Assembly: GCA_937893125.1 (NCBI GenBank)
Contig: CALBHW010000037.1
Coordinates: 1,533 to 65,532, forward strand
DNA length: 64,000 nucleotides
DNA from: an uncultured Clostridia bacterium
GTDB taxonomy: Bacteria > Bacillota > Clostridia > Christensenellales > UBA1242
Direction of reading: 5' to 3'
Part shown: one piece after another, positions 11,857-55,666 of the stretch
Layout: each line of letters begins with the position of its first letter
How positions within the stretch are numbered: the stretch's first letter is position 1
The notes under the pieces: generated by a model
Told to the model about the DNA's origin: nothing
The model's input: the letters and a program-made list of their open reading frames with translations, nothing else
Database searches by the model: none
Program-made: the position numbers and the translations under genes

Positions 11857-11879
11857 CAATTTTTGCTAAACATTTTAAA

Positions 11880-11989: not shown

Positions 11990-12162
11990 CGGTCGCGACC
12001 GTTTGGTCGGTTTTATATAAATTGTATTATAAGCGAAAAGTAGCATTTCGACCGAAAAATCGGTCGTTTTGATATGGTTTTATAAACTTTTATGTGTTTT
12101 TTGCATTAAAACGACTTTTGTGCTACTTTTATTTTTTTATTTCCGAACAATTAGTCGGAAAT
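11990..12162 (+). other. Cluster of GC-rich palindromes and hairpins in otherwise AT-rich spacer (possible small structured RNA or protein-binding sites)
   Basis: CGGTCGCGACCG is a perfect 12-bp palindrome (11990-12001). CGACCGA-AAAA-TCGGTCG hairpin plus TTTT (12049-12070). AAAAGTAGCA (12036-12045) is complementary to TGCTACTTTT (12121-12130). ATTTCCGA-8 nt-TCGGAAAT hairpin (12139-12162). Confidence 0.3.
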
Positions 12163-12385
12163 ACAATCTCTTTAATTTTGTTTTTGTCGCAACAAAAAAA
12201 CTTTTTCTAGTTTAGAAGAAAAATAATTGGCTTGTTTTGAATAAAGAAGAGCATTTTTTTTTGGAGCAAGGTTTGATTTCGCGGTTGAAAATAATATGTA
12301 TAATGTAACTGTTTTTTGTTTTAAAGTTTAAGTCAAATTGAGTAAGGAAAATTATAAAAAAAATTGTGCATAATTTAGATGAAAG

Positions 12386-12394
12386 TTATCCACA
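12386..12394 (+). promoter_or_regulatory. Perfect consensus DnaA box TTATCCACA in the leader of the giant gene
   Basis: Exact 9-mer match read directly in the sequence (gaaagTTATCCACAaat). Confidence 0.4.
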
Positions 12395-12477
12395 AATATT
12401 AGGTTTTTGTGAATAAAATTTATGGAAAAAACAGTAAAAATAATTTGTGATTTTTTTACAAGAATTACAGTGTTTTT

Positions 12478-12501
12478 TTGCAAAAAAAATTGCAAAAAAA
12501 A
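12478..12501 (+). repeat. Tandem exact 12-mer TTGCAAAAAAAA x2, overlapping a T7-GC-A7 palindrome; a third exact copy lies at 12786-12797
   Basis: Copies at 12478-12489 and 12490-12501 are identical and adjacent. TTTTTTTGCAAAAAAA (12473-12488) is a perfect palindrome. The third copy ends 70 nt before the giant-gene ATG. Confidence 0.7.
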
Positions 12502-12685
12502 GTTATAAAAATCTTTGGAAATTGTTATAAAATGTTTTGAATATACTGCGTTATATGTTATAATTTTATCGTAGTAATTTACGATTTTGTGCGAATATTT
12601 TTTTAGTATTTTTTGGGCTAATTTATTTTGAATTTTTTGTGCTATTTTTGACAAGATTTTTTCTTTATTTTTTTAAAAAATTTTT

Positions 12686-12719
12686 TTGATTAAAAAATAA
12701 ACGAATTTTGATTAAAAAA
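12686..12719 (+). repeat. Direct repeat TTGATTAAAAAA x2 spaced 22 bp, with a related TTGGATAAAAAAA at 12726-12738
   Basis: Exact 12-mers at 12686-12697 and 12708-12719; the spacing is about two helical turns. Confidence 0.6.
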
Positions 12720-12867
12720 GAATTCTTGGATAAAAAAAGAAAATTGTTTTGTCACAAAAAACAAAATTAAATTTAGCAAAAAGTTTTGCAAAAAAAATGC
12801 GGAAGTTTATTTTTATTTAATTAAATATTTTTACAAAAGAGAGCAAAACTACAAAGGAGGAATCGTT

Positions 12868-13413
12868 ATGGATTTCAATGATGAAAATAGGAGAGTAAAT
12901 AACGCAGGGTTAAATGCGAATAATAAACCTGCCCAGTCGGGCAGTGGTTTTTCGGCTGTAAAAAATCAAGCGACTTCGCCTATTGGAAGGGAAAATGTTA
13001 GGGCGACTAATTTTTCTCAACCTAATTCAGTGGGAATAAATAATGGTTCTCAAATTGGGCACGCTCAAAATATGAATGCATCTAGGATGGGGCAACCTCA
13101 AAATGTGCCGAATCCTCAAAGTGCTAGACCTAATAATCAGCCTTTGAGTCCTAAAAGCATTCGACCAAATGGAGCCCAACAGTTAAATGATTCTGGGCGA
13201 CCTAACTCTTCGGGACAAAATGGTGGAGGCTTTGCGGGACAAGGTGGGAATTATACAAATCAAAATGCTAGACCTAATATGCAAAACTTTCAAAATGTCA
13301 ATAGACAAGGTAGCCAAAATTTTGGTGTGCAAAATCAAGAAAGTAGAAAGGATTTTGACAATAACAAAAAGGATAGTGACGGGGTGGAAAAGAAGCCTAG
13401 GTCGAAAAGGAAG
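12868..13413 (+). other. Giant protein aa 1-182: low-complexity N/Q/G/S/P-rich predicted cytoplasmic region ending in KKPRSKRK
   Basis: The sequence NAGLNANNKPAQSGSG...QPQNVPNPQSARPNNQP...GQNGGGFAGQGGNYTNQNARPNMQNFQNVNRQGSQNFGVQNQ has no hydrophobic core. A basic cluster lies immediately before the TM helix. Confidence 0.7.
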
Positions 13414-22400: not shown

Positions 22401-25400
22401 CACGACTACTGAATTTAAAAATACAACATTGTATGCAATGTTTATGCCTATTTCAATAAGATTTGATTTTAGTTTCCGATTGAGTTCGACGGATACAACT
22501 TCAAAAGGTGAAGAGTTTTCTATAACTGGCAAATACGGCGAAAGTATTGTATTCCCAAGTTTAAATGACGGAAGTAGTTACAGCGAAATTATGAAAAATT
22601 GGTCGCACGGTCAAGATGTTTTTGTTGATTACAATCTTCCAACCGAAAACGCAGGAACAAAGATATATAAGCAAGGCTACAAGTTTATTCTATTAAAAGA
22701 CGAAGACCTTAGTTTCTATAATTTCACAACCGTTGAAGAAATAAACGATAAAGGACAAAAAGTTCAAGTTTATGTCATAAAGGTTTACTCTAACTGGGCA
22801 ACACCAACAGTTACAGTCAAAATTTATTTGGGTGGCGGAAAGGCCTCCGAATACGCCTATTTTGGTGACACGACGACTGTATCAAATGATTTAAGAAAGG
22901 ACGGCCTTGGTGTTTATTTAACTGCGAAGGCGGTTTTTGAAAAATATTATACCTTGCCAAACCTTGACGATTTTTACAAGAGAAATTACTACGCAAGTGC
23001 CTATTATGCGAAGTCAAGCTATACCGATTTAATTGAAGATAATCAAATTTATATTTCTTCAAAAGACGAGGTTTCTGTCTTTGTTAAAATGGATGATGCG
23101 GATAGTTACATTAAAGGTTTTTATACATCTTGTGGGTTCAATAAGTATTTTGGTAAATTAGAGACGGCGCTACAAAGCGGAGCAAGCCTTGAAAGAAACA
23201 ATGTTGAAGTCGTATTGCTTGATTTGAGAAGCGAATTTGTCATTACAAAACAATATAACATTGGCGATAATAAAAATTTTGTCATTAGCCTTGACGACGG
23301 CGTAAAGGGTGACAAGACGATTAGAAGAAGTTATGTCGCAGATAGCGTTGACAAAACTTTAATTACGGCGGGAGAAAATTCATCCCTAACTTTATCCGCG
23401 CACAAATCATACAGTTTGATTTTTGACGGCGGGGAAAGAATTGCAAAAATAACTTGTGGCAACCTTACAATAAATAGCAAGGTGGTTGTTAAAAATCTCG
23501 AAATAACGGGCGACGACCAAGTCGTTAATGGTGGCGCGTTCTGGGTTGAAAATGGAACGGTTACGATTTCGGGTGCTGAATTTACCGATAATAAATTTGT
23601 GGGAGTATCAGCGTCTACAACATATTATGGAACGGTGCTATATGCAACAAATGCCGATGTCACGATTTCTTCAAGTGCGTTTAATAACAACTCACTTTCG
23701 GGTGCTGGTTTGCTTTATGGCGGAGCAATAGCGGTTGTTACAAAGTCACTTAATATTGTCGACACATCGTTCAATAAAAATAGCGCGCAAAGCGAGTCAA
23801 CGCTTATTGGTGATTCACCGTTTATTGATGGCAACCCATACGGTGCTGTAGGTGGGGCGGTTTATGCGTACGATGTACAATTTAACTTTGATTTTGAAAG
23901 CGGAAAAGGGTTTACATCAAACATTGCTGATGTTGGTGGCGCTCTAGCGATTGACGGCTCAGTCGAAAGAGAAATCAGTTTTGAAACTCCTGTATTTTCA
24001 AAAAATTACGCAGTCTATGGTGGCGGTGTATATTTGAGAAATATTATTCTTAAACTTACCAACGCAAAACTTTCAAGTAACGGCTTTATCGACAAAGTCG
24101 TCGCGCGTAAGGGTGGACTTTTCTACCTTGACGAAGGTGCAACACTTTCTCTCTTGGTTGATATGAGTTCTATTTTGGACGACGGCAGTATCGGGGTTAC
24201 AACAGGTGATGGATTCTTTGCGCAAAATCTTGCAACCTTTGGGGGTGCGATATATTCTGCGGGTAAAAAAGTTGAAATTGAGTACAATAAATTCCAACTT
24301 AACTCTTTTAGTGCTGATTTTGCTAAGGACTTTTTGGAATCTGGAACAAGCGAAGGTGCTGGCGGTGCAATTTATGCTGAGAGCGGGGAAGTTATTTTAA
24401 GAAAAGTAACCTTCCAATATAACTACTCGGTTTATGGCGGAGCGGTGTATATTGGTGGCGACGCAAAACTTACAATGGACACTGCTGACCTTTTAAGAGA
24501 ATATATTGAGTCTCTTGACCCAAGTAAGGTTACGGACACAATAATTGAGCAATATAGCAACTCGCTTAGCGACAATTTTGCAAAATATGGTTCGCAAATT
24601 TACTATGCGTCGACAAACGAAGAATCGACGATAACCTATACGATAATTCAAAAAGGTATGCAAGAGTTTAACACTCCAAACGAACGTGGCGGAAACCTTT
24701 ATGTTGCGGGCGGAAAGTTGACCCTTCTTGAAAAAACCTATATCTTTGGTGGCTACTCAAAAATGGGTGGCGGTGCTTATGTTGGGAAAGACATTATGTT
24801 AAATGATGATTCCACAAAGCCAGCAGAACTTGTTGTAAATGGCGCGAATTTTGTTTGGATGAACGAACAAGTTGACGGAATGAATGTAGGTCTTCTTAAC
24901 TCTGCGCGTGAAAAAATAAAGGAACTTGAAACGCAAATTGAAGAAGCGAAGTCACGCGGTGAAGATACGACTCAACTTGAAGAGCAACTTGCGGAATTTA
25001 AGAAAAAAGAAGAAGAGATTTTAAAACAACTTGAAATCAAGATAATAGACCCAGACGGCAACTATGCGTATATGGGCGGAATGTTCTATATTGACGAAAA
25101 CGCAACTGTTACACTTTTGTCAGGCTATGGTGCGGGAACGGAGATTGAATATGCGGAGGACACACCAAGCGGACAAGGCGAACTTGCCTACAATAAAGGG
25201 ACGCTTATTTATGACGACTTCCTTTTTGGGCAACATATGATTGACGGCATAATTTCACAAATCTACAACGAGGGACTTGTGGAGTTTAGAACGTCAGGTT
25301 CAAGCGACTTCTTAACCAGCCCAATTATTTACATTGACAAGACAGAAGATGCGTACAAATACATTCTTATTACAAACGATAAGTATGTTCCAGCAAGAAC

Positions 25401-46400: not shown

Positions 46401-47310
46401 CAACGGACTTCCTAACAATTTCTTCGTTTATTATCGTAGACATCACGCTTTCCAAAAGGTTGAGAAATTTACAGACCTAACTGGGCTTATTGAAATTCCT
46501 TATCCAACAGTTGTAAAAAACACGGTCATTAGATTAAATGGTAGCAGTGATAGGTTTGAGTGCCGTGGGGAAGATGGTTGGCTTATTGATCCATTCCACG
46601 ATAGGGACGTTTATCTTGGCTCTTCGCTCGTGTGGGTGCCAAAAGACTCGACTTCGGACTTTTTAATTTTCTATTTGCAACTTATTAGTGGTGCAAATGA
46701 CATTACATCAAGCATTCAAGACGATATTGAAGAGCAACTTGGAATAGACAAGGTTAAAAACTTTGCAAATGATGTCGGTGGAATTGTTATGATTCTTAAT
46801 AAAATCTTAGAGAATGTTGAAGAAGGAAGCGCAATTGATAAGGCGTTAACATGGATTGGTTCTAGTACACAAGATTTGCAAAAAATGCTTGACGGCATAA
46901 CGGATAAGATTAAGGGACTTGAAGGTTATGGTGATGTGGAAAAAGCTGCAAAAACTTTAGCTATTATTAGCGAAGTTAAGTCCGTTGTTGATATGCTCTT
47001 ATATATCGCGACAGGAGACCTTCATTTGTTCTTAGCGTTCAAGTATGATATGAATTTTGTTGTTGCTCAAATCCCTGTTATCGTTGCGAATCCAGCGAAT
47101 TTGGAACAATGGAAAGATTATAGAGATGCATTCCAAAACAAGTCTTCGCGTGAAATCTTCAAGATTCTTGTAAAATCAATAAAGAACGGCGGTAAGTTGA
47201 TTATCAGACTTATTCCAGGTCTTGGAAAGGCAATTGCGGATACAGGACTTGGCTACGATTGGATTATGAATATGATTGAAGAGTGCTTTACTTGGGAAGG
47301 TTTAGACTAA
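12868..47310 (+). CDS. Giant (11,480 aa) membrane-anchored surface fibre protein: N/Q-rich cytoplasmic head, signal-anchor TM, Flg_new-type repeats, seven Pmp-type parallel beta-helix modules, BspA-type LRR module, unassigned C-terminal domain
   Basis: Uninterrupted ORF of 34,443 nt. AGGAGG lies 7 nt upstream of the ATG and an intrinsic terminator starts 45 nt after the stop. The longest shadow ORF on any other frame inside it is 150 aa. Domain calls come from motifs read in the translation (see sub-features). Confidence 0.9.
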   Translation: MDFNDENRRVNNAGLNANNKPAQSGSGFSAVKNQATSPIGRENVRATNFSQPNSVGINNGSQIGHAQNMNASRMGQPQNVPNPQSARPNNQPLSPKSIRPNGAQQLNDSGRPNSSGQNGGGFAGQGGNYTNQNARPNMQNFQNVNRQGSQNFGVQNQESRKDFDNNKKDSDGVEKKPRSKRKIALVSILLSLLAVAGIIIGIVVAPKGECTINFVGWAVEVSSETCKKGERFVAPTPEDIRDENGKVLLKFDGWTYDDGSMYTPSVLSNDLTLHAKFTASDVKTTFVSRNLFDENDEYVYLYETTTKYFVEKINLADVASGVRLLDTGNANMYRYSFASGAKTEISTLQTDTYRNFISNYYNIADFKLFGSDTTYTSFDTIDTPKGNKAFVISFGAKNVKINYDANLSCLKDFYSGEDLNRLLSSISKGASESIVEYNTDGYIMKPYKEQMVDYFRPSKHEFLGWSLVPYDTTTTISSSSYIPYGVTEKIDKNFLRNKSEITLYAVWTEYRTPLRIYTDAKLLADTKIAVGASMRIDDWSSQVDKLKNYKAGYALIGFNTQPDFTGEIVNFDTVIEGGIDSKYYNNDEEAIVLYAVYAMVVEDTYFNLNTDLLDPCVVPNVDELISKFDIVLNHDNFVFKTSESDVGYVYDNEISATFDSENNRVVLKNLIEGATIKLPNFERRNRDYVDLSNYNLKGYILTTDLTSKIKSVDSTFIVTQDDTYKDENKNKLAFDLVWTGIDSVFSIEFYNYHSISQDKDFKLVMEFVLPYGVSLDANWADEFLNNATFFDFRLRNLDNNEILTERTFEREGFKFEGFSNGEGGVLLEETLRNFTLNTDFFYTGERHHRLVAKWTKETYDVTFSLGGGEYLSRDDGESSASDYVLTVAYDDEINLLNDELSFTGYYFDGYLDEQGNKYAENVEKVRISDAVTFTAQWVKAYVITLFLDFSREESREILVEKNGDFVLTGKEFSDLNDAYIFERYSVSLVDNTKDTVGFNVSDKKQSFIGVERDIEMYAMWFKVSYSNGDDGSLGVTDSKTEEYYVTNKASFRLLNNPYSLPDEKDYYQFDGWSVDGSIDTYSENYYYLISQSSPKNISVTAKWRLRNVKVVMYYDAQESSNYVDGLAINNQFIVSSDNGRLVNGNGREIDYIFDSQNAKFIEKNATSFVISVPTIVNDRGEKDSRIVKIDGEYVYKIFTMWKYVITYISSDVGVVQVIANEFLGASLKSGATLDSNNMTSLNNIDDSYVLTLPNREKVEGEKSNGGFGFKISRKFFEKWSSDSVQIVENSGVQTAKIVKDTTFTASWRGLDYTLHLVDSLGGLTSRDISVKYGEEILLSDHFTADEKTRLFGGSNGCYKVLTKMSYEYSGASKTFSIDEPIVFGTQDVGGFILESDLTDNEAEFRVVWEEKQYTMTVLLSGGEWDSGVSSTDEFIDLNGTLKKDSDNNYYFEYPVFYSSLSADGVQVGFKGLKKNGYRLNGFTGSDFLSEITNDSCVIKYSGTAESFDAGERKITADWQKVLHINFNLNGGSVSYNGTTTDTISTYDVDLDDQNNTTIDLSQIMLDATTTLNGGIFKGKDGFEFVGFSFDKEGFNATYQRNEDSYLLAGAFSLATSFEENATYYILVDGKYQKATDVTSENFASGQYYVYNGAFYSTLVPISFTTEMYEKYANLASSSVTLYAVWKTSVSFNNGKQEVGETVSYFTPIEENEVASSSEAFNVEFFYNQQISVEDLARFGFKAKNSEVYNMSGWVCDGKALTSVTIDKKLTLTARWNVNKITVYFKNYDGSDFDGVEKSFECFSGDTITGLGEKFNFEPTLFGYTFIGFSNEPTDNLIGEGDAKDYYALDAEYVVPSNSTILYAVFQKCRVIVKYEPNYADVVSTGITSDDGYALDEENYYYYQFGDSYLLNDSATFSRRFFTFAGFNLFKDSLIPLASKNVALTRENGVTLNDAGEYVLTLYPVWNRQTKEITLILDGGTFDNSEAFYDETNVDLYRSVVVGTTKVVLTVYIGENVTVKLPTSDVLTKVGYEFDCFLNTSGGKMGAYVTCENADAVTFTATYKKIISINIHFTEDDVQQIATVYYDDMISFDIVDSSGIRFTNMGVIPNVENTLSHEIKNYHIKSLSSSIIAGTKYTMGMFYNAREEFFEISSASTIDLYVSYEGDLSTVKFDPYNDENEMYIKSSDFNFGQSVTLSDVFGQPLDRNDYVGYNFVGYKLLNVAGEPYEDGKYEFADNFATFNPEILGLDYQKVYVFVAMFEERMFDVEFDFDGGAYVSGGVKNSSATFKVQYSSQANLLDILRAGNEDLTILHSEDSADGRIHPLYHFTEFTSEDIEINGNVFTMPAKNIKVKPVFESNEIILSIDATGTLIGQSIGQGYYEALKENKYDLSLGGVNNNSTLFVKGLKIGDRIDFSDLPLPVNIGFAGTYAYLPDFNGASGEVFDNSEKDYTKVGSTDVFDLLSSKINPNTLTNLDSLYSETLGGFVLYFSTVWETNEYTINYVPFIPIVSNGYPVGATEKVVTGETTSQSVKYGEDITLLAPYSLTGWTQIGWSTTRSLNDEKCVIYYFGENGELPHGVYNFTTEQSGVFYLYPVWRQNTYTIELVDTESNNNLMRDGVKSSSLSIKFKYDEIRTLDDLLTGITINEFTYNEEKTIYLVPSKFVYMASSTGIETEFKREDVLVFSQAPYGFIDGKDFTENTIHISVVFEEVYYTIRFHLLEGGIYQNNNTELAQNYNEENETYTLEGLVRYSALNSANIEDLFTMEQLYLLNENDIVKILDMTYTLAGWSRSAGADRMDVLKGTPLSYILDNPKETLKKTENGFDYVFNFYAMYNDILLTLNGNGGTTLTSAPSTIETDDSTWIKEAKSVYTYAYFGKNIDIDEDLFKYFALNNYHYDKNNRIEADISCPTSEKFVVNREMTQIDISWIGNLRLVSMVSTIGGNISVASDFKYELFKVDGLDIGLTEIAYSDLPADLTDVYAYIYTAQTLSSLETGTLVLASTLGELSSKYTYYKKAPIGITFKARFGDEITDLNKVEIVGNSVTFTGWGDEYGIYSGDDCKLNVEQADGDIICLFSQSENVYVTFNLNGGIYYDTTKSEWVEKIAPYKLLTVSGSSLFYIDLPLDILNGAGLGPTKTGYQFIGWSTYENYDLYLAGDRSLLYSRTGFEDIVATTQFTTTEFKNTTLYAMFMPISIRFDFSFRLSSTDTTSKGEEFSITGKYGESIVFPSLNDGSSYSEIMKNWSHGQDVFVDYNLPTENAGTKIYKQGYKFILLKDEDLSFYNFTTVEEINDKGQKVQVYVIKVYSNWATPTVTVKIYLGGGKASEYAYFGDTTTVSNDLRKDGLGVYLTAKAVFEKYYTLPNLDDFYKRNYYASAYYAKSSYTDLIEDNQIYISSKDEVSVFVKMDDADSYIKGFYTSCGFNKYFGKLETALQSGASLERNNVEVVLLDLRSEFVITKQYNIGDNKNFVISLDDGVKGDKTIRRSYVADSVDKTLITAGENSSLTLSAHKSYSLIFDGGERIAKITCGNLTINSKVVVKNLEITGDDQVVNGGAFWVENGTVTISGAEFTDNKFVGVSASTTYYGTVLYATNADVTISSSAFNNNSLSGAGLLYGGAIAVVTKSLNIVDTSFNKNSAQSESTLIGDSPFIDGNPYGAVGGAVYAYDVQFNFDFESGKGFTSNIADVGGALAIDGSVEREISFETPVFSKNYAVYGGGVYLRNIILKLTNAKLSSNGFIDKVVARKGGLFYLDEGATLSLLVDMSSILDDGSIGVTTGDGFFAQNLATFGGAIYSAGKKVEIEYNKFQLNSFSADFAKDFLESGTSEGAGGAIYAESGEVILRKVTFQYNYSVYGGAVYIGGDAKLTMDTADLLREYIESLDPSKVTDTIIEQYSNSLSDNFAKYGSQIYYASTNEESTITYTIIQKGMQEFNTPNERGGNLYVAGGKLTLLEKTYIFGGYSKMGGGAYVGKDIMLNDDSTKPAELVVNGANFVWMNEQVDGMNVGLLNSAREKIKELETQIEEAKSRGEDTTQLEEQLAEFKKKEEEILKQLEIKIIDPDGNYAYMGGMFYIDENATVTLLSGYGAGTEIEYAEDTPSGQGELAYNKGTLIYDDFLFGQHMIDGIISQIYNEGLVEFRTSGSSDFLTSPIIYIDKTEDAYKYILITNDKYVPARTIELMFDDSSYLIGVPVVKFIDKDVYDAFKLNYEASKMPFYILSEPLLDLKFDDEQMALVLRYRHYNLYFNDLSVDRADIRTPNSLIFTCDDPISGDFFSTISSQKLSRTGYNFKGFAYYVVTEDSGLPSTYDNNIACKFDGKLADNDGIEVLDFLDKNIAGKTFYRIEDVTELESGFKKFPPHDIYLYAIWEPKTYNMTYHYDTNYGGMEGVSSYTIKGVNLTDFNLGKLNSVGKYGDNYKFITLEELTAFDYVAYFTISTISSSISGEPLQIMDGGITYDVTFDADLYKYVYIKGETKFIVESESRSYCILDLSTYSGEDKAELEKGEKRSVFIDGVTYNFRYRYIPDGYEFDHIEINGNSCFNLGDLFKLDNSNRFAICTSEPYTIDIVLYMKRSNVEIAFTNLGEKSSDIVLSRYVGATITLPTGTVSIMDDIERVIYKAGYVLKGFNDSNGNFWALGTTYSIPSTALIGETFTAVWEKASFYVKNVVKTERETLNKYYQSIFDAVADINSDNFDIKTSGGYDLVLMELADEVLKEDSLMKSSNGKGTDYIIYLDKTLSLKNGTNILGEARANCNFILTYSLGFDNEKALINISSEVTIGQSGNNVIIKDVRNSVTLSNSAIEVESTGKLTLGVNAEISNITATTSSTKRFGGAITNKGELILNGAYIHHNMAIYGGAIYNYKGAKVTINNPTKSSNSGRILENVATENGGAIYIEEESEVVINGDENVISFNSNSAKSGGAIYSLGILKIMSQVIFTNNGATENGGALYINGMITIGDNAEFTSNYATRGGAIYVTTTLILGSVKFSDNKISSTGQGGAIYSESSLTINGSAQFVQNNKNGAGSGGAIYAKGSLSIKSGMYSENEAGSGGVLCVLNAQATIIGGTFTKNISKLGGVIFAENSTVSILGGDIKENEAVVSVGSDTGVQSTGGGAVYLVDSTLDLAVKLQNNTASSGGAIFARGASVVTLNSGAQIVGNTAHSFGGGIYLIEEATIEITDDTVEISSNTADSFGGGIYVASTSVVTLDKGVILNNYITNTRKNKEGLLVYEGTDLYLNSGAHVVISGAKVGADNLNDTTYEVYVGEKAVLEVISCDILASVYVKQIKTAQETGFNSIILSDSAYIRRIYLNQYNFIAIENKLTSTRFDAGETIDIHFGFYDPDDATSIIDNTYIARFNNMTTLKDNFICFNLVKHFKELEEYCINRENRDGYAWLVIKEFAKIININANGGTITLDGKSASGNASLVVENLQKRGSLKFLDDITGVRLGYELSGRFIEEETNEIYSSYSPLPIYVITIKAEWAPKAYNVVIERESDSGLIKDNLELKYSDFTTLSSCNKDYKKFVGYEVGYFKDDNVVKTGIILNGTTFSFKDFNSDSVVSSDGLTTGSQIFEIIDKSLDKTIYLTSVFEDVKVVLTFLANSALAQAVDIADLPDYDKEKYEVERVNDLTYRVSVSQSNMYVSIYDFLEFFKMPSHAVTGFFTGEDGTYNEGRDVMYNADRTSIPIHSILTLHLQCVWQETVAYIRKPDSSGEGRIVYYDSLEKAVNALIPRDELVILANKIELDKTIYFTTDVKVVIPGEVTLTRVKGFNDYLLDISSIVTFEVQEGGKLVFSGAGLGVSTFGAVMVEKAGTLTVGKNVFFTDNYSINAGAGINSLGKLFVEGATFERNTSQSNGGALSSSGVLEISKDSTFSKNISWKMGGAIYVSDGTSQIVNSTFLENNAYTSGGAIGFDSKLTMNVTTSTFVGNFTDIKDGSSGGAVFVGLDTGLVTLKDSTFTSNSSYMGGAIYVLGVTIGNADYNVLIDGGSLSNNTATFGGAVCIGSTAYYARQSLRLSGGEILENSATYGGGVYVFRGAYTLAKGKVANNTASFGDNIYVNYNGTLNILGGEVGSPENNGTIFVAGLTYSTFGRVYFSGRYDVKSKVLLANGAYVTVEGTIDKNSSVVILEPIKVSKNVVTGTNYPSGKGSLKVVQFENTIDERMFDLTDDVKNIGVDSFRLKLIDNNLYITKAVFTLKVYKESGDFEIDSALGATIDIDFVSVEVPYTTNLLEFLSGITATRENKDFAGWLSIENGAKTPLTAESTMPYSDYEVYANWSADYYFLKVYVNDSYSPSDTYALVNVAGLNLNSESKESYADGVITLKVFVDKDDSTFGTQALQRVINNLSRNNYTILGFGLSQLIENNLVVYTASNFNMPEKDLSLYVLWEGNSYNLTIASEDGTIERKTYTLIFDQYFTLPGEDDFVKDGYTLTGFRGRSTTYGVKENVLNLTDATLYAVFEANEYVINFASNNQSAYGQIESIVATYDKDVALLGNSFTLRGYTQIGWSLDKLALPTDTDKIIAINATIRNLAMGGEVTLYAIWAPNTYNISYHLSGAETSDVVFTETATYDDEFTLTKLKDMGVVYSASYYLVGWSIRPYIYTDRVEATFTDGQKVFNLIESGTIHLYAILDEKAVKVYANNGSSDFVLVKTNAQGKAVVQKSNLSSLKLDGFEVGLLSSSPNISSGETYEFTENGISFDLMDAESVVELYIGWKAMSYTFEFVVAGEKFSEFGSQTKSVKVFGNNTYSTYSDNNQLFIYTSNLDNILIHGWSVDENTSTLDFNLGTNVQVTNSLLAIFGKFQDTTKKTLKIYAVLEDSYELSYDLNTTYNVAFASATDIVAKGSVTTPVTKVGTKEKIRFSDISNNIWEIADLENNVYAYFAGWALENTASEPEYAVGQNYEVTFVGKVTLYAVWKEYTNPFMFTYEEYNDGVSIVGISSAFNGTEIVLPRHEILNNNGTLVKGKDVLKIAPLTFSAHTISAIDFEFATSLETVSSFAFRDVSGLTVLRNLPQKANYDDGAFVSSTLQKVVFEDSINRYDVDKLGNVYKVDEKATLLALLAGNCFDEMAIGGMVTLQNSGAVKVEVLKRYALYLARINALDLSQLSKIESGALENISGLETLTVSFVGESAENKKPLKEWFSGSEIVLKNVYITKEQEISSNAFSGLATLEYVEYLSGITFIGNEAFKDCIKLSFLRGTGSAKIDLSQVTTIGDSAFENCASLTGSVDFTQVSSIGKYAFLGTNIEEVVLTRKTSQFGYNFNSSLSIGEFTAFYGATSLKNAYVYSTNALDAVINNTGIKGGENKIGTIYVDVNFYTVLTHLSDITRRDNYFSYNIVVYDRIELLDADNIVGYYDDLQGAIDSAKNGQKIVIKTDIVIEETIEINKNITIVGGFRKVDPSDESYKYTLSRSSVTLTIDDALTDKVVFAVTANDAEIGTKLDIDGIIDAQIVVYSLFTRSASVISLNNGGLILGENFVASGITANESTYGAILSVREHSTLFINGATLTKNRAGYGGAIYVQDSNVSITSSNISNNTADENGGAIYVKGAGRLVIEKSSNPTIMSHNIAGAKGGAIFISSTIVDANYASTLDNGKIFDNEATLGGAIYIESGLLAIADDSVTISNNTAISGGALYAESGTILLSCGVIGGVEASPLGLENKGNSATEQGGAIYIGKEATLNMEGGEVSLGKSKLGSNIYISSNKTSEISSGTIESGYMDDLTNTRGGGIYLDTGTLVLLDNATISKNKAYFGGGIFVGRGTLQVNFILEGAGITNNFATFGGGLYVDSGIVRLVGARLSQNKAQNGGGIYAKGGEISTSSVSESVIDDNWAILGGGLYILGQANVDLKATTISNNKAKVIDGVELTDESEFNGAGIYFEDGKLSLYNVSVLSNSAQTSGGGLYVGTQKSTKSSTISISGKTIFTQNTANVSGGGLYVDRTLNILQAEFLANGQVEGMLGGAMYVGKNSVLTLDNVRVSTKNSSVNNQTMGIYLEEGGKSNAFIVSSKTVIDKQNTFVYLSHGSIVRINEKGSKDNQIKLYSEDFNNIKTMDDRVRVAEFTKSAYAISGKFYARSTAFLQEKTTIYAVIATVVETKRTGSTGDADQTNYSTLREAILQCEDDALLSVFRTQTVTSAIYIPRNKTATVVVNDNEFESVLIERAESYLGYMFVVYGTLNLNDGRSTTLTINGKNVTGGASAMFVGETGTLNINKNVEIVNNYASADRGTLVENLSKGETIRIEDSNCGGAIYIRGGVVNMASGNLVNNSAKNSGGAVYVASGTFTMTGGNIGEEGNGNTATYGGGISAISGEVVLDGETVIVKCNTSEFGGGLYIGTQGKLRILKATIQNNSATNGGGLYLSSSLSGVSYDAMLAKVTYNTATGYGGGLYIKSGILGSTNLEWLNASIEISNNSATSGGGLYVVNNGSVNLYKATISNNYATLSGAGGYFDSKLTSTFTNSTISDNGKENGLGGEVTEFGGGLYILGGTVNFNKDGDFVSEIKSNYALNGAGIYVTNDGIFVSTGEARISSNIASENGGGIFVNLTTGKVELVGTILSQNKATLSGGGIYVEKGNLIFSSTAGEHTEGNLEENSAGENGGGLYIGGGRVTLNDLIIQKNRVSDGYGGGMYVAGGEYVDMTSCVIVDNKVTKAGVTDGYGIALSGGLLRLLGRNVIHNNATIYKENATTNSREGSILIMGETTDTNGVMLSGYIDSLYDQFYLFSKNSYLLTNLGTGKEGVDEILNKESASGLSVKIKVGQGLTTKKAYGDKAVKFSSADGAKKYLDQKWFEIPIESGMILASIIEDGRSYIVVERQYFQVFAYKEGDKINVLGAYMELQEALNNLAQLKDKTDRGYLIIANYGADTYYIKNIINISSTTVGDVGNMPITITSNQRNLNIARNGEFKDYMFVIESGYEVILGANIENFSDVYDIYSLDFVEDSLRPYLTLKGSSDSESGLIKNSGKLTLSYASKLTNETTTRDGAGVLSEGELILSGGVISENRATNGGAIYVKSGTFTMVDGSVYLNTATNGGAIYVGKNGVATIEKGEIGSSIVSRANTAVNGGGIYVGGGKLEIKGVQLLNNKATNGGAMFIAPEIVESVSYHPEVKISSKKVLGTDSVLIANNSADNYGGAIYVEDNYNTETDDKTLTIDGGIIQYNKAKAGGAIFIATVHGTADEKSYTGALKFSESGTKRKVYGVNVSILSGTIFGNSANRDQGHEEDTLKVKSGDGGQIYAFGGNLVVQGGDITGTGAYLAIDGGAIYLNDSKATIYGGEIKSNKVSNNAGAIYVDKNSSLTLDGDETGVYITSNSAYANGGAIYQEKGEVETKVISGGETVTEKVITSGVIRIIAVTLRANEVETGNGKGVYVNTIGKDFIIGRGKTDDGIEMLSNNLTISDELYLANKSIVYVDGLYNPSYIRTNKTIPLRIGFRSNDYVNSDGSRNIVAEYTNEITGSAIFESVDAGLFSGIGFDGQDCMFCIVDKYKVAVGKANFAVKYGTGAIKYFESFRNALYSVRVDAENPNISTATVYYLVDDIEKYVINEEITLTDGVETTVTSGVLIKNDDGSKTVSKIEKRLEMKVKTIGGSLITIKANDDDDSKAPNITFENITISGAERPTNPKAFNLFALHSGTLTLQDTILSSIYSSAQGGVVKVLGGNLVMSSTKEVGTQITGSKSSDGVLFVSNGTVKIMGANETSQVQFIGNTTSYGALYVESGEVEAEYVTFSGNIADFGGAVYLAKRETKDGEEVAFKVSFKNATFEENSAKQNGGAVYVSSVSSATFENAEFIKNSASGNGGALYLENDVKFSDTNISNGNANYGGGIYMTSDADSLSGVTMLGNRAVYGGGLAVVSVNEGLTVSIYNATLNGNKLKANAENASYGANVYIANSTCNFGANVVIQNGTRMDGNRNDALGGGVYMTASTLVVDGAGTIIEGNKATNGGGIYADTGSVLTIYNASISGNDVESGLGGGIYFNGEKLNVDKGAEIGKSDNGNKARLGAGVYIASGNVVVGNIDASGSGEATIGYNIASENGGGVYFETGNLTIAGYAYIVGNKASKSGGGVYATQSFKMTGGEIGTTESTDNANTASFGGGVYVESGFTFMAGSIAGNKANATRSVGESINGMGGGVYVLSGTFSMGEATDRPSGNPTIDSNTARLGGGIYVNSDGKSVNTSDTPNVNLYKGSLINNTADYKYTEAIGEKEVEFHEGSGGGLYISYRSESDEGNSVCIGYNEGKTENIVISGNIAYDDGGAIYSGASLKIMNTKVGAGDSAVGARSKSSNYAGSRGGGIYVAGGKLQMSDSTIYNSVAPYGGGLYISNLDNPNSEGNKNFIEGVTFDKNTAGKTKDFERKEGTSSIIAGDYHGGAMYLANGPLTFNGVTFTSNQATYGGGMYINRSGTSEFKITNSKFEGNKAVASSKDEEPSGFGGAIHIQNGNVRITSSLFGQDINNKGQKIGNPNTANYGGAISLKQGTLLIGEIVSGTEGSVDTKNVTFRSNTASIDGGALYLDGTSGRQSSKTILNNVLFDGNTATSGKGGAIASYSYFEVNSTTFASNRASNGGAVYVGAQGTYDEAGKSYTDLRKGEGHFKTGIMTGNSATNGGAIYVDDLYKDEAGLILKHKKSPDYIQELASRTSNSGNDGFVTYVVISEGFGSTQEKDPRIAIYGNRADKNGGAIYANNGVVNNSTNIVNNSAKQNGGGLAIMSAYFIQEKGAISNNTASNGGGVYMDKVEEKDSSNATKTYYGVLSLNTSSCEVSNNNAEKIEKDTENKTGYGGGIFGAGKLAGSGFIQNNTATNGGGLATNGNFDASEFIGTIGINSYENEYSSWLAIETASNKSTTYTYEYSNGEKVTLPLFSNNATNGGAIYVSVGDVTFGGSILGNYATNGGGVYIASGTFAFGLESRAMYIARNYATNGGGVYMAGGKFTLNKGSVIGSTKVNSSNSDEMMNAPAPNIARDSGGGIYAIGGEIQLKGYVSYNRALNEEGNAGGVYCKDTNLTLDGSEAQISHNESAGKVGGLYFSAGSGLRTLTLNNRAVISKNTAKKEHKDLLEYISIKANDEGEKKSPYVNEVYMDGNSELKVLNHSVLGANQNNFTDGTAYYSLSLYWYYTGTKETINFDSCIDSYGSVKGDIYLRTDGDKVIEFDTKMFEVDYNPGQEDKETGNERSSGFVKGNYVNGLPNNFFVYYRRHHAFQKVEKFTDLTGLIEIPYPTVVKNTVIRLNGSSDRFECRGEDGWLIDPFHDRDVYLGSSLVWVPKDSTSDFLIFYLQLISGANDITSSIQDDIEEQLGIDKVKNFANDVGGIVMILNKILENVEEGSAIDKALTWIGSSTQDLQKMLDGITDKIKGLEGYGDVEKAAKTLAIISEVKSVVDMLLYIATGDLHLFLAFKYDMNFVVAQIPVIVANPANLEQWKDYRDAFQNKSSREIFKILVKSIKNGGKLIIRLIPGLGKAIADTGLGYDWIMNMIEECFTWEGLD
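13414..13485 (+). other. Giant protein aa 183-206: single TM helix (signal anchor, N-in/C-out)
   Basis: IALVSILLSLLAVAGIIIGIVVAP is 24 uncharged residues, preceded by KKPRSKRK (positive-inside rule). It is the only clear TM segment in the protein. Confidence 0.75.
13486..23145 (+). repeat. Giant protein aa 207-3426: array of about 28 diverged Listeria-Bacteroides (Flg_new / InlB B-repeat-like) domains
   Basis: Recurrent units of about 70-120 aa end in hydrophobic-Y-A-x-W/F and contain G[YF]xFxGW. Examples: HEFLGWS...LYAVWTEY, FTGYYFDGY...FTAQWVKAY, YQFDGWS...VTAKWRL, TGWTQIGWS...LYPVWRQNTY, KTGYQFIGWS...LYAMFMP. Further units lie between beta-helix modules 1-3 and before the LRR module; I counted about 42 in total by hand. 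Confidence 0.65.
23146..25590 (+). repeat. Giant protein beta-helix module 1 (aa 3427-4241), Pmp/GGAIY-type repeats, with coiled-coil insertion
   Basis: Cap KYFGKLETALQSG..VEVVLLDL is followed by rungs such as NGGAFWV, YGGAIAV, VGGAVYA, FGGAIYS, AGGAIYA and YGGAVYI, with F/Y-x-x-N motifs (FTDNKF, FNNNSL, FNKNSA, FSKNYA). Confidence 0.7.
26902..29070 (+). repeat. Giant protein beta-helix module 2 (aa 4679-5401)
   Basis: Cap KYYQSIFDAVADIN; rungs YGGAIYN, NGGAIYI, SGGAIYS, NGGALYI, RGGAIYV, QGGAIYS, SGGAIYA, FGGGIYL, FGGGIYV. Confidence 0.7.
30019..31445 (+). repeat. Giant protein beta-helix module 3 (aa 5718-6193)
   Basis: Cap YYDSLEKAVNALIPRDELVILANKIELDKTIYF; rungs NGGALSS, MGGAIYV, SGGAIGF, SGGAVFV, FGGAVCI, YGGGVYV. 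Confidence 0.7.
33631..34893 (+). repeat. Giant protein aa 6922-7342: BspA-type leucine-rich repeat (LRR_5-like) module
   Basis: Contains I.x.AF..c..L-type units: VSSFAFRDVSGLTVL, IESGALENISGLETL, ISSNAFSGLATLEYV, IGNEAFKDCIKLSFL, IGDSAFENCASLTGSV, IGKYAFLGTNIEEVVL. Confidence 0.6.
34930..37188 (+). repeat. Giant protein beta-helix module 4 (aa 7355-8107)
   Basis: Cap YYDDLQGAIDSAKNGQKIVIKTDIVIEETIEINKNITIVGG; rungs YGGAIYV, NGGAIYV, KGGAIFI, LGGAIYI, SGGALYA, FGGGIFV, FGGGLYV, NGGGIYA, SGGGLYV. Confidence 0.7.
37189..39360 (+). repeat. Giant protein beta-helix module 5 (aa 8108-8831)
   Basis: Cap NYSTLREAILQCEDDALLSVF; rungs CGGAIYI, SGGAVYV, FGGGLYI, NGGGLYL, YGGGLYI, SGGGLYV, NGGGIFV, SGGGIYV, YGGGMYV. 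Confidence 0.7.
39361..41373 (+). repeat. Giant protein beta-helix module 6 (aa 8832-9502)
   Basis: Cap AYMELQEALNNLAQLKDKTDRGYLIIAN; rungs NGGAIYV (x2), NGGGIYV, NGGAMFI, YGGAIYV, AGGAIFI, DGGAIYL, NAGAIYV, NGGAIYQ. Confidence 0.7.
41374..46440 (+). repeat. Giant protein beta-helix module 7 (aa 9503-11191), the longest continuous run of Pmp-type rungs
   Basis: Cap KYFESFRNALYSVRVD is followed by about 39 G-G-[AG]-[IVLM]-[YF]-type rungs by my count, e.g. FGGAVYL, NGGAVYV, NGGALYL, YGGGIYM, NGGGIYA, SGGGVYA, MGGGVYV, RGGGIYV, NGGAIYV. Confidence 0.7.
46441..47307 (+). other. Giant protein aa 11192-11480: unassigned C-terminal domain ending in a predicted alpha-helical tail of about 209 aa
   Basis: The GGAIY periodicity stops. 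The sequence changes to HHAFQKVEKFTDLTGLIEIPYP...ECRGEDGWLIDPFHDRD, and from 46681 to amphipathic helix-like text (SSIQDDIEEQLGIDKVKNFANDVGGIVMILNKILENVEEGSAIDKALTWIG...). There is no LPXTG, no clear TM helix and no repeat. Confidence 0.5.
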
Positions 47311-55655: not shown

Positions 55656-55666
55656 GGAGAAAACAA

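What the first reader, a model, noticed from the sequence alone, without database searches (positions are those of the whole stretch)
23146..46440. Seven independent Pmp-type beta-helix modules, each opening with the same Y-x-x-[LF]-x-x-A-[LIV] cap
Each block of G-G-[AG]-[IVLM]-[YF] plus F/Y-x-x-N rungs starts with a similar cap. I counted about 110 rungs by hand in total. The caps are YFGKLETAL (23146), YYQSIFDAV (26902), YYDSLEKAV (30019), YYDDLQGAI (34930), NYSTLREAI (37189), YMELQEAL (39364) and YFESFRNAL (41377). In several modules a 'this part is kept short' strand follows, such as KIVIKTDIVIEETIEI. This is the N-terminal cap pattern of pectate-lyase-like right-handed beta-helices, so the protein appears to be a concatenation of seven complete beta-helix domains, not one endless repeat. 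Modules 1-3 are separated by Flg_new units, whereas modules 4-7 abut directly. Module 7 alone is about 1,690 aa. The modules total about 5,850 aa. If I assume about 23 residues and 0.48 nm per rung, they would span on the order of 100 nm; this is a rough inference only.
Basis: partly seen in the sequence, partly recalled or inferred. Interest (0 to 1): 0.7.

Follow-up and report, generated by a model that had tools for sequence, protein, structure and literature searches.

The report
Seven-module giant beta-helix surface protein
One 11,480-residue, membrane-anchored surface protein of an uncultured gut Clostridia bacterium contains seven separate Pmp-type beta-helix rods that each begin with the same short conserved motif; it is a clearly resolved example of the giant adhesin-like proteins already noted in gut Clostridia, not a new kind of system.

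Summary
The region lies inside one ORF (window 12868-47310, 11,480 aa). All seven cap strings sit at the stated coordinates. Canonical Pmp rungs (84-89 counted here, against about 110 by hand) occur only in seven clusters, and each cluster passes the Pfam Chlam_PMP and TIGR01376 cut-offs.

The pattern [YF]xx[LFI]xxA[LIV] matches exactly seven sites in the protein. These are the seven caps, each 129-226 aa upstream of a rung cluster. Colinear orthologues from two other assemblies (about 30% identity) keep the module order and keep the caps. Profiles built without a given module still rank that module's cap first to third for six of seven modules.

AlphaFold models give high-confidence beta-helix for module 5. 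For module 7 they give a continuous helix of more than 1,000 residues. The cap helices are predicted only at low to moderate confidence, and the module 4-7 junctions were not resolved.

Best reading: an N-terminally anchored, roughly 11,300-aa extracellular adhesin fibre with discrete capped beta-helix modules. Capped multi-module Pmp proteins also occur among the other database hits, so this is a new member of a known kind, of moderate interest.

The parts
12868..47310 (+). Single giant ORF, 11,480 aa, ATG start preceded by AGGAGG
   Evidence: The C-terminal 1,629 aa are identical on ENA contig ERZ27300227 k119_14979. Colinear orthologues exist in two other assemblies.
12868..13485 (+). N/G/Q-rich 183-aa N-terminal tail, followed by the only TM-grade hydrophobic segment of the protein (aa 184-206); read as a signal-anchor
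   Evidence: Hydropathy scan and composition. There is no LPXTG motif or C-terminal TM segment.
13486..23007 (+). Stalk of about 21 divergent Flg_new / List_Bact_rpt-like units (aa 207-3380)
   Evidence: TIGR02543 scores 26.5 bits (cut-off 20.95) in aa 206-1200. There is a weak Flg_new_2 hit. An iterated profile of the protein's own units finds the units. The GYxFxGW / LYAxW motifs are present.
23146..25602 (+). Module 1 (aa 3427-4245): cap YFGKLETAL, 5 canonical rungs at aa 3653-3870, and a charged helical insertion at aa 4003-4062
   Evidence: The cap was found by profiles that contained no M1 sequence.
25603..26901 (+). M1-M2 linker with two Flg_new-like units
   Evidence: Own-unit profile and motifs. 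The Pfam and TIGR models do not reach threshold here.
26902..29082 (+). Module 2 (aa 4679-5405): cap YYQSIFDAV, 13 canonical rungs at aa 4848-5206
   Evidence: Chlam_PMP 83.9 bits and TIGR01376 94.6 bits. Rungs. The orthologue cap is YYASIEEAV.
29083..30018 (+). M2-M3 linker with at least one Flg_new-like unit
   Evidence: Own-unit profile only. No family model reaches threshold.
30019..31452 (+). Module 3 (aa 5718-6195): cap YYDSLEKAV, 6 canonical rungs at aa 5847-6042
   Evidence: The cap ranks 1st in the leave-one-module-out test. The orthologue cap is YFLTFTEAL.
31453..34767 (+). M3-M4 spacer: about 7 Flg_new-like units, then a BspA-type LRR_5 block (approximately aa 6935-7300)
   Evidence: TIGR02543 39.4 bits. 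Flg_new 25.9 bits and LRR_5 88.4 bits against a cut-off of 27.7. Own-unit profile.
34930..37188 (+). Module 4 (aa 7355-8107): cap YYDDLQGAI followed by KIVIKTDIVIEETIEINKNITIVGG, 13 canonical rungs at aa 7508-7944
   Evidence: Chlam_PMP 81.5 bits. Best cap score in all profile tests. Orthologue caps are YYNNIYDAV, NFATLKEAV and SFSTLEEGI.
37189..39363 (+). Module 5 (aa 8108-8832): cap NYSTLREAI, 12 canonical rungs at aa 8240-8637
   Evidence: In the AlphaFold model, aa 8244-8679 are all-beta with pLDDT mostly above 85, and a helix is predicted at aa 8112-8118 on the cap at pLDDT about 60-70. Orthologue caps are NYATLKEAV and NYATLKDAL.
39364..41376 (+). Module 6 (aa 8833-9503): cap (A)YMELQEAL, 8 canonical rungs at aa 8996-9327
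   Evidence: The cap ranks 1st in the leave-one-module-out test. Orthologue caps are VYVTLADAI and CATLKEAV.
41377..46440 (+). Module 7 (aa 9504-11191): cap YFESFRNAL, 27 canonical rungs at aa 9723-10974; one long helix
   Evidence: In the AlphaFold model (pLDDT 77, pTM 0.77), aa 9589-10619 are continuous beta structure. No gap between rungs exceeds about 100 aa. Orthologue caps are FFETLESAL and YFMDIKTAL. Cross-module cap similarity is weak, rank 9.
46441..47307 (+). C-terminal 289-aa domain at the distal end: no family assignment, and amphipathic/helical-looking by my reading of the sequence
   Evidence: No Pfam or NCBIfam hit. One hit (E 3e-7) among 1.84 billion representative proteins. 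A C-terminal tail that looks similar by eye is present in P0241 and P0242; the BLAST alignment to P0241 reaches giant aa 11420, that to P0242 stops at aa 10982.

Best explanation
The finding lies inside a single 11,480-aa cell-surface protein of an uncultured, low-GC, spore-forming gut Clostridia bacterium. The nearest LeuRS sequences come from MAGs labelled 'uncultured Christensenella sp.'.

Shown directly or by tools:
- One N-terminal transmembrane segment is the only hydrophobic anchor, so about 11,270 aa are read as extracellular.
- The outside part is a string of modules. A stalk of about 21 Flg_new-like units comes first.
- Then come seven Pmp-type right-handed beta-helix modules. M1, M2 and M3 are spaced by Flg_new-like units. 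M3 and M4 are spaced by Flg_new-like units plus a BspA-type LRR block. M4 to M7 follow one another directly.
- A 289-aa C-terminal domain with no family assignment is the last element.
- Each helix module starts with a conserved element: a beta-strand, then [YF]-x-x-[LIF]-x-x-A-[LIV], then two or three short alternating hydrophobic strands. About 130-225 aa of non-canonical turns follow, and then the canonical GGA[ILV]/xxN rungs.

Inferred:
- The conserved element forms the N-terminal helix-plus-first-turn that closes the hydrophobic core of each helix. Every module would then be an autonomously folding rod, and the junctions would act as hinges.
- The protein works as a long-reach adhesin or spacer fibre. 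The rigid rods display variable loops, and the LRR block and the C-terminal domain (the point furthest from the anchor along the chain) are presented to partner cells, host glycoproteins or particles. This would parallel chlamydial Pmps, Fusobacterium Fap2 and BspA proteins.
For: Gene reality:
- The ORF runs 34.4 kb and has a strong Shine-Dalgarno sequence.
- Colinear orthologues of 29-36% identity occur in ENA ERZ16268262 scaffold_494 (7,829 + 3,689 aa, followed by the same Fe-ADH gene) and in GCA_964367785.1 (more than 7,228 aa). Partial Clostridia MAG proteins P0248 and P0254 are also colinear.

Modules:
- Chlam_PMP and TIGR01376 exceed their cut-offs in all seven modules.
- Rungs occur only in seven clusters.
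- The same clusters, in the same order, occur in the orthologues.

Caps:
- All seven pattern matches in the protein are caps.
- Caps are conserved at orthologous positions.
- They are recovered by profiles that exclude the tested module.
- The cap profile also precedes rung clusters in unrelated multi-module Pmp proteins such as P0246, P0313 and P0335. This argues that cap plus helix is a reusable domain unit.

Fold:
- AlphaFold gives high-confidence beta-helix for M5 and for more than 1,000 aa of M7, with a helix predicted on each cap motif.
- Foldseek hits are almost all right-handed beta-helix proteins: pertactin, Ag43, Hbp, PL6 lyases and phage tailspikes.

Topology: there is a single TM-grade segment at aa 184-206, and no LPXTG motif.

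Adhesin context:
- LRR_5 scores 88 bits and List_Bact_rpt passes its cut-off.
- Pmps are adhesins whose motifs build rungs that display loops (PMC10715098, PMC2997323).
- Fap2 is a 47-nm beta-helix adhesin rod (PMC12397386).
- Giant gut Clostridia proteins with Listeria-Bacteroides repeats and LRRs have been read as adhesins (bioRxiv 10.1101/2023.11.21.568195).
Against: - No binding or expression data exist. The adhesin function rests on analogy only.
- The cap helices are predicted at only low to moderate confidence: pLDDT about 60-70 for M5 and about 35 for M7.
- The M4/M5 and M5/M6 junctions were unmodelled, with pLDDT below 40. Independence of M4-M7 is therefore not shown.
- The post-motif strands of the M7 cap are divergent, rank 9.
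- The C-terminal ends of the modules show no detectable mutual similarity or family.
- Family models do not detect Flg_new in the M1-M2 and M2-M3 linkers. Only the self-trained profile does.
- The orthologue in L082 is split by a frameshift within M4. This could be an assembly error or real decay.
- The giant gene is absent from the flanks of LeuRS in 80 related genomes. Its distribution is therefore narrow or patchy.
Confidence: 0.65

Rival explanations
1. Modules 4-7 are not independent rods. The roughly 3,800 aa from M4 to M7 stack into one continuous super-helix. The conserved 'cap' elements and rung-free stretches would be interior irregular turns or side domains, not termini.
For: There are no recognisable spacer domains between M4 and M7. 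The AlphaFold junction regions were unresolved, so separation was not shown. Other metagenomic Pmp proteins have rung clusters spanning up to about 3,100 aa with no gap above 250 aa. The Fap2 helix is a 2,905-aa rod with a kink (PMC12397386).
Against: Rung-free intervals of 313-418 aa recur at each junction, against no more than about 100 aa inside modules. The same cap element starts M1-M3, which are flanked by unrelated Flg_new-like units and so must be true N-termini of helices there. In the other Pmp proteins collected here the element also lies upstream of rung clusters, in some cases near the protein N-terminus (P0187, P0246). A helix is predicted on the motif.
Confidence: 0.15
2. The beta-helix modules are carbohydrate-active enzymes or carbohydrate-binding modules of the pectate-lyase superfamily (lyase, esterase or epimerase type). 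The protein would be a giant cell-bound polysaccharide-processing scaffold.
For: The best Foldseek matches include PL6 alginate or chondroitin lyases, pectin methylesterase, the AlgE4/AlgG epimerases and phage depolymerase tailspikes. The cap profile's only full-length PDB match is the N-terminus of pectin methylesterase 1xg2. Many homologues carry PF13229 or PF05048 annotations.
Against: No catalytic family is detected in any module at E <= 0.01. This includes Pectate_lyase, Pectinesterase, Beta_helix and NosD. Foldseek scores are weak (one match at E <= 1e-3, TM-scores 0.1-0.5), as expected for generic beta-helix similarity. The rungs are of the Pmp type, whose conserved residues are buried and structural (PMC10715098).
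Confidence: 0.1
3. The fibre is a delivery device. The C-terminal 289-aa domain, which has no family assignment, would be a toxin or membrane-active effector presented at the tip, as in CdiA or other polymorphic toxin systems.
For: The C-terminal domain matches no Pfam or NCBIfam family and has almost no relatives. It sits at the end of the chain furthest from the anchor. Its sequence looks helical and amphipathic to me on reading.
Against: A similar-looking tail is present in two orthologues at about 30% overall identity, not swapped out. The downstream gene is an Fe-alcohol dehydrogenase, both in the window and in L082, and not a small immunity-like gene. No pre-toxin or cleavage motifs were found. 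No padloc or toxin family search was run.
Confidence: 0.07
4. The giant ORF is an assembly artefact: repeat-driven mis-joining of several Pmp genes.
For: It comes from a short-read metagenome assembly, the protein is repetitive, and one orthologue is split in two ORFs.
Against: Modules are only 22-29% identical at protein level. The longest DNA repeats are 40-63 nt at 60-85% identity, too weak to mis-join. The frame is unbroken for 34.4 kb in DNA of about 31-43% GC. Two independent assemblies give colinear orthologues with the same module order.
Confidence: 0.02

Closest known systems
Chlamydial polymorphic membrane proteins (Pmps; PF02415 / TIGR01376 repeats)
   Same: The same repeat family, above the curated cut-offs, in all seven modules. 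Paired xxN and GGA[ILV] motifs have a period of about 25-32 aa and are predicted to form right-handed beta-helix rungs. Pmps have an adhesin role and display loops (PMC10715098).
   Different: Pmps are Gram-negative type V autotransporters with one helix of 9-25 repeat rungs, a 'Pmp middle region' and a C-terminal beta-barrel. Here there is no barrel and no middle-region family hit. The host is a Firmicute, the anchor is an N-terminal TM segment, and there are seven helices in one chain, one with at least 27 canonical rungs.
Non-chlamydial PF02415 proteins (Methanobrevibacter adhesin-like proteins, Phycisphaerae, Trichomonas; metagenomic 'right-handed parallel beta-helix repeat-containing' proteins)
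   Same: 25-33% identity over the helix cores. Some also have several rung clusters, each preceded by the same cap element (P0246, P0313, P0335). Their rungs have been predicted to be beta-helical (PMC10715098).
   Different: The hits retrieved here were 436-3,967 aa long, but the search tool appears to cap hit length at about 1.75 times the query, so longer relatives would not have been returned. None apart from the orthologues shares the full stalk-M1-M7-tail layout.
Fusobacterium nucleatum Fap2 (and RadD) beta-helix rod adhesins
   Same: A very long right-handed beta-helix used as a rigid spacer with binding sites at the distal tip. The scale is comparable: 47 nm for 2,905 residues (PMC12397386).
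   Different: Fap2 is an autotransporter with a single kinked helix and is not of the Pmp-repeat type. No sequence similarity was tested or found here.
N-terminal region of pectin methylesterases / pectate-lyase-superfamily helices (e.g. tomato PME, PDB 1xg2)
   Same: The cap profile aligns over 49 positions to residues 15-67 of 1xg2 (YQTLAEAV...RYVIYVKRGTYKENVEV...MNLMIVG). This is the same order of helix motif followed by short hydrophobic strands.
   Different: E = 0.07, which is not significant. No Pectinesterase or Pectate_lyase Pfam hit was found and no catalytic residues were identified. This is a resemblance, not family membership.
Giant (10,000-30,000 aa) gut Clostridia proteins with Listeria-Bacteroides repeats and LRRs noted by West-Roberts et al. 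(bioRxiv 10.1101/2023.11.21.568195)
   Same: The same size class, host class, habitat type and accessory domains (Flg_new, LRR). The proposed role, adhesion to other cells, is also the same.
   Different: That survey does not describe Pmp beta-helix modules or their caps. Whether this protein was in their set is unknown.

Membership tests
Pmp-repeat proteins (Pfam PF02415 Chlam_PMP / NCBIfam TIGR01376 POMP_repeat) | Repeats scoring above the curated family cut-off | tested here: met
   PF02415 scores 24.2, 83.9, 35.7, 81.5, 36.3 and 43.8 bits for M1-M6 and 41.3/64.0 bits for the two halves of M7, against a cut-off of 20.6. TIGR01376 scores 19.1-94.6 bits against a cut-off of 15.
Pmp-repeat proteins (Pfam PF02415 Chlam_PMP / NCBIfam TIGR01376 POMP_repeat) | Repeats form stacked rungs of a right-handed beta-helix | tested here: met
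   This is a prediction only. The AlphaFold cores of M5 (aa 8244-8679) and M7 (aa 9589-10619) are all-beta at high pLDDT. Foldseek returns almost only right-handed beta-helix structures.
Chlamydial Pmp autotransporters (type V secretion) | C-terminal autotransporter beta-barrel and Pmp middle domain | tested here: not met
   No Autotransporter or ChlamPMP_M hit was found in any segment at E <= 0.01. The C-terminal 289 aa have no family. The genome encodes SpoIIE, so the host is a sporulating Firmicute.
Chlamydial Pmp autotransporters (type V secretion) | Cleavable N-terminal Sec signal peptide | tested here: not met
   The only hydrophobic segment starts at aa 184, after an N/G/Q-rich tail. 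It therefore looks like a signal-anchor. No signal-peptide predictor was available.
Pectate-lyase-superfamily beta-helix with N-terminal capping helix | An amphipathic alpha-helix packed over the N-terminal end of the helix core | tested here: inconclusive
   A helix is predicted on the motif in both models (aa 8112-8118 and aa 9502-9509), but at pLDDT of about 60-70 and about 35. Packing could not be inspected. The profile match to the N-terminus of PME 1xg2 has E = 0.07.
Pectate-lyase-superfamily beta-helix with N-terminal capping helix | Membership of a catalytic family (Pectate_lyase, Pectinesterase, Beta_helix/NosD, PL6) | tested here: not met
   No such Pfam or NCBIfam hit was found for whole modules at E <= 0.01, for the cap regions at E <= 10, or for the module ends at E <= 1.
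Flg_new / List_Bact_rpt (PF09479, TIGR02543) units as inter-module spacers | Family model above cut-off in the linkers | tested here: inconclusive
   TIGR02543 passes in aa 206-1200 (26.5 bits) and in the M3-M4 spacer (39.4 bits), against a cut-off of 20.95. It does not pass in the M1-M2 or M2-M3 linkers. Those linkers are joined to the family only by an iterated profile of the protein's own units and by motifs.
BspA-type leucine-rich repeat (PF13306 LRR_5) | Family model above cut-off | tested here: met
   88.4 bits against 27.7, in 3 stretches. The best stretch is aa ~7150-7263, between M3 and M4.
LPXTG sortase-anchored Gram-positive adhesins | C-terminal LPXTG motif, hydrophobic segment and basic tail | tested here: not met
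   There is no LPXTG-like motif in the last 1,000 aa, and no C-terminal hydrophobic segment.
Polymorphic toxin systems (CdiA/Rhs-like) | Variable C-terminal toxin domain with an adjacent immunity gene | tested here: not met
   A similar-looking C-terminal tail is present in the orthologues. The downstream gene is Fe-ADH, both here and in L082.

The most novel reading that the evidence does not exclude
The protein represents an undescribed type of Gram-positive surface appendage. It would be a single-chain, N-terminally anchored, segmented fibre more than 100 nm long, comprising a stalk of about 21 units plus seven hinged beta-helix rods. Its conserved C-terminal domain, which has no family assignment, would act as a specific receptor-binding or membrane-active tip. 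The fibre would mediate long-range cell-cell tethering in Christensenellales-like gut bacteria. One candidate partner is methanogens, which carry Pmp-type adhesin-like proteins themselves.
Probability: 0.1. Interest if true: 0.6.

Novelty: new member of a known kind. Interest (0 to 1): 0.35.

Why it matters
The finding gives a clean, orthologue-supported domain map of a giant protein from an uncultured gut Clostridia lineage. It also shows that Pmp-type beta-helices come as a discrete unit, consisting of a conserved N-terminal start element plus a helix. That unit is reused several times in one chain and recurs in unrelated metagenomic proteins.

This has two practical uses. First, it gives module boundaries for expressing single rods in binding assays or structural work. 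Second, it provides a cap profile that could be used to segment the many unannotated multi-kilobase Pmp proteins in metagenomes.

It does not open a long-standing question. Beta-helix adhesin rods, non-chlamydial Pmp repeats and giant Clostridia adhesin-like proteins are all already described.

Tried and rejected
1. A profile of the seven window caps alone, used to search 120 homologues, gave almost nothing significant. A simple cap regex was only mildly enriched before the first rung in those homologues, 15 observed against 7 expected. The test became decisive only after the orthologues were found.
2. Alignment and BLAST of the seven C-terminal module ends showed no significant similarity, and no Pfam family matched.
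3. Tandem duplication of M4-M7 was rejected. The modules are 22-29% identical throughout, and DNA repeats are only 40-63 nt rung motifs.
4. phmmer of M4 against PDB sequences gave no hit at E <= 1.
5. The first attempt at an 81-sequence alignment failed in the tool. It was repeated with 40 sequences.
6. Structure job A was designed to show the M4/M5 and M5/M6 junctions. These regions came out at pLDDT below 40 because no homologue covers them.
7. A scan of genome contigs with the C-terminal 481 aa found no relative. The LeuRS scan gave the taxonomy, but none of the 80 loci carries the giant gene.
A 2,270-aa query worked and found the orthologues.
9. The C-terminal domain was searched against 1.84 billion representative proteins and gave one weak hit.
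10. Pfam at E <= 10 on the seven cap regions gave nothing relevant.
11. Rfam on the whole window gave no hits.
12. A literature search for giant protein + Flg_new + Chlam_PMP found nothing.


Full report
**What is at the coordinates.** The stated region (23146-46440) lies wholly inside one open reading frame, window 12868-47310 on the + strand, encoding 11,480 aa. The ATG is preceded by AGGAGG at the usual distance and by about 1 kb of AT-rich spacer.

These correspond to aa 3427, 4679, 5718, 7355, 8108, 8833 and 9504.

**Is the repeat/module pattern real?** A strict rung regex finds 89 GG[AGV][IVLMF][YFSCH] sites. A rung HMM trained on them finds 84-89 rungs at >=3 bits, about 100 at any score. 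Every one lies in seven clusters: aa 3653-3870, 4848-5206, 5847-6042, 7508-7944, 8240-8637, 8996-9327 and 9723-10974.

Within clusters, successive rungs are typically 24-40 aa apart and never more than about 100 aa. Between clusters the distance is 313-1,488 aa.

Pfam Chlam_PMP and NCBIfam TIGR01376 exceed their curated cut-offs in each of the seven modules, with module 1 the weakest. The hand count of about 110 rungs is somewhat high for canonical rungs. The module sizes (5,861 aa in all, 1,688 for module 7) are as stated.

**Is the cap more than chance?** The pattern [YF]xx[LFI]xxA[LIV] matches exactly seven sites in the whole protein, and they are the seven caps. Shuffled sequences give 3.2 +/- 1.8 sites. 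Each cap lies 129-226 aa before the first canonical rung of a cluster.

With only the seven window sequences, a leave-one-out profile of the cap region recovered the left-out cap as the best site in the protein for M1, M3, M4 and M7. It ranked third for M2 and failed for M5 and M6.

The test became much stronger once orthologues were found. A 2,270-aa query retrieved P0241 and P0242, and also the partial Clostridia MAG proteins P0248 and P0254. All four align colinearly with the giant protein over 2,300-3,800 aa at 29-30% identity. At every orthologous position the cap is kept:
- M5: NYSTLREAI / NYATLKEAV / NYATLKDAL
- M7: YFESFRNAL / FFETLESAL / YFMDIKTAL
- M2: YYQSIFDAV / YYASIEEAV
- M4: YYDDLQGAI / YYNNIYDAV / NFATLKEAV

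A profile built from orthologue caps alone returns caps M4, M5, M3, M1, M2 and M6 as the six best sites in 11,480 aa. M1 had no orthologue in the training set.

When each module and its orthologues are left out, the cap ranks first for M3-M6, second for M1, third for M2 and ninth for M7. The cap similarity is therefore formally supported for six modules. For M7 it is supported only by the 9-residue motif and its conservation in orthologues.

The aligned caps share three features:
- a preceding beta-like strand;
- the motif itself;
- two to three short alternating hydrophobic stretches of the KIVIKTDIVIEETIEINKNITIVGG kind.

**Fold.** Two AlphaFold jobs were run, with alignments made of the window's own paralogous modules plus database homologues.

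- **Model A** (aa 7990-9010; mean pLDDT 60.8) gives all-beta structure with pLDDT mostly above 85 for aa 8244-8679 of M5. It places a helix at aa 8112-8118, on the M5 cap, at pLDDT about 60-70. The end of M4, the last ~100 aa of M5 and the start of M6 are below pLDDT 40. The reason is that homologues cover only the helix core.
- **Model B** (aa 9440-10639; mean pLDDT 77.1, pTM 0.77) gives continuous beta structure over aa 9589-10619. It places a helix at aa 9502-9509, on the M7 cap, but at pLDDT about 35.

Foldseek against the PDB returns almost only right-handed beta-helix proteins. These include pertactin, Ag43, Hbp, EspC, PL6 lyases, pectin methylesterase, phage tailspikes and Rhombotarget A. 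Scores are weak, which agrees with the published statement that Pmp rungs have no close solved relative (PMC10715098).

So a beta-helix fold is well supported, and module 7 is one helix of more than 1,000 residues. A capping helix is predicted but not securely. The independence of M4-M7 remains open.

No Pfam family covers the cap regions. A profile of 18 caps against PDB sequences gives, as its only full-length match, residues 15-67 of tomato pectin methylesterase 1xg2 at E = 0.07. This is a suggestive resemblance to the N-terminus of a known beta-helix enzyme, but it is not significant.

**Surroundings within the protein.** Only one TM-grade hydrophobic segment exists, at aa 184-206. It follows a 183-aa N/G/Q-rich tail, and there is no LPXTG motif. 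I read this as a signal-anchor with about 11,270 aa outside the cell.

TIGR02543 (List_Bact_rpt) passes its cut-off in aa 206-1200 and in the M3-M4 spacer. Pfam Flg_new and Flg_new_2 are just below their cut-offs.

An iterated profile of the protein's own units converges on about 31 units:
- 21 in the stalk, aa 186-3379
- two between M1 and M2
- one between M2 and M3
- seven between M3 and M4
- none within M4-M7 (one 4-bit stray; shuffled sequences gave 2 hits in 5 runs)

Scores of included units are inflated by self-training, but each unit entered at E < 0.01-0.05 before it was included. A BspA-type LRR_5 block (88 bits) precedes M4.

One addition is the LRR block. One caveat is that the M1-M2 and M2-M3 units are too divergent for the public family models.

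The last 289 aa match no Pfam or NCBIfam family. They have one weak hit among 1.84 billion representative proteins. A tail that looks similar by eye ends P0241 and P0242.

**Evolution.** The modules are 22-29% identical to one another, no more than to unrelated Pmp proteins (25-33%). DNA repeats are limited to 40-63-nt rung motifs. There is thus no recent tandem duplication.

The orthologue on ENA ERZ16268262 scaffold_494 is split into overlapping ORFs of 7,829 and 3,689 aa within M4. It is followed by the same Fe-ADH gene as in the window. The orthologue in GCA_964367785.1 is an ORF of more than 7,228 aa that runs off the fetched locus. Rung clusters in both have the same number and order from M2 to M7. 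The layout is therefore old and maintained.

**Organism.** The nearest LeuRS sequences (88, 77 and 75% identity) are from MAGs labelled 'uncultured Christensenella sp.'. The genome encodes SpoIIE. None of 80 related LeuRS loci carries the giant gene.

**How common the design is.** Among the 354 other Pmp proteins collected, 75 have two or more rung clusters. The cap profile hits upstream of every cluster in several unrelated proteins. For example, P0246 has cap hits at residues 16, 743, 1389 and 1963, and P0313 and P0335 have three each. Rung clusters with no gap above 250 aa span up to about 3,100 aa in other proteins. Cap-plus-helix is therefore a general, reusable unit, and module 7 is long but not exceptional.

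**Function (inferred).** The domain set is Flg_new, BspA LRR and Pmp helices. The topology is N-anchored with everything else outside. The size class matches giant gut Clostridia proteins already interpreted as adhesins (bioRxiv 10.1101/2023.11.21.568195).

Pmps are adhesins in which the conserved motifs are buried and build rungs that display loops (PMC10715098). Fap2 is a 47-nm, 2,905-residue beta-helix adhesin rod with binding sites at its tip (PMC12397386).

By that calibration, the seven modules would add up to about 70-95 nm if extended in series.

The rivals are a continuous M4-M7 super-helix, enzymatic helices, a C-terminal effector and an assembly artefact. They are listed with their evidence, and none is favoured.

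**Verdict.** Three points remain unproven: the structural role of the cap, its pectate-lyase affinity and the independence of M4-M7. The object is a new member of a known kind, a giant Clostridia adhesin-like protein built from Pmp-type beta-helix modules. Interest is moderate to low.

Noticed in passing
window 12868-13485: The giant protein starts with a 183-aa N/G/Q-rich low-complexity tail, followed by the only TM-grade hydrophobic segment in 11,480 aa (aa 184-206). This suggests a signal-anchor with a disordered cytoplasmic tail, not a cleaved signal peptide.
   Followed up: partly
window 24874-25053: A highly charged stretch of about 60 aa that looks like a coiled-coil hairpin (REKIKELETQIEEAKSRGEDTTQLEEQLAEFKKKEEEILKQLE) interrupts module 1 between its rungs. 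No other module has such an insertion.
   Followed up: no
window 46441-47307: The C-terminal 289 aa have no Pfam or NCBIfam family and only one weak hit (E 3e-7) among 1.84 billion representative proteins. A tail that looks similar by eye ends two orthologue fragments. As the point furthest from the membrane anchor along the chain, it is a candidate binding or effector tip.
   Followed up: partly
L082 4-10032 and 9947-21070: The orthologue on ENA ERZ16268262 scaffold_494 is split into two overlapping ORFs (called as 7,829 and 3,689 aa) inside module 4. The cause could be a frameshift, an assembly error or real decay. The same Fe-alcohol dehydrogenase gene follows it as in the window.
   Followed up: partly
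window 33670-34767: A BspA-type leucine-rich repeat block (Pfam LRR_5, 88 bits) sits between the last Flg_new-like unit and module 4.
   Followed up: yes
window 54312-57394 and 58754-61066: Downstream lie stand-alone Condensation, AMP-binding and PP-binding genes (a small NRPS-like trio), and then a SpoIIE-family gene, which marks the host as a sporulating Firmicute.
   Followed up: no
window 11857-12867: About 1 kb of very AT-rich non-coding DNA precedes the giant gene. No Rfam family matches anywhere in the window.
   Followed up: partly
window 93-3440: Two upstream ORFs (481 aa with a sub-threshold MBG_3 hit, and 576 aa with no family) may be further surface proteins.
   Followed up: no
proteins P0246, P0313, P0335 (database hits, not in the window): Unrelated metagenomic Pmp proteins show the same cap element before each of 3-4 rung clusters, spaced about 650-700 aa apart. 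The capped Pmp module is therefore a widespread unit that current domain libraries do not model.
   Followed up: partly
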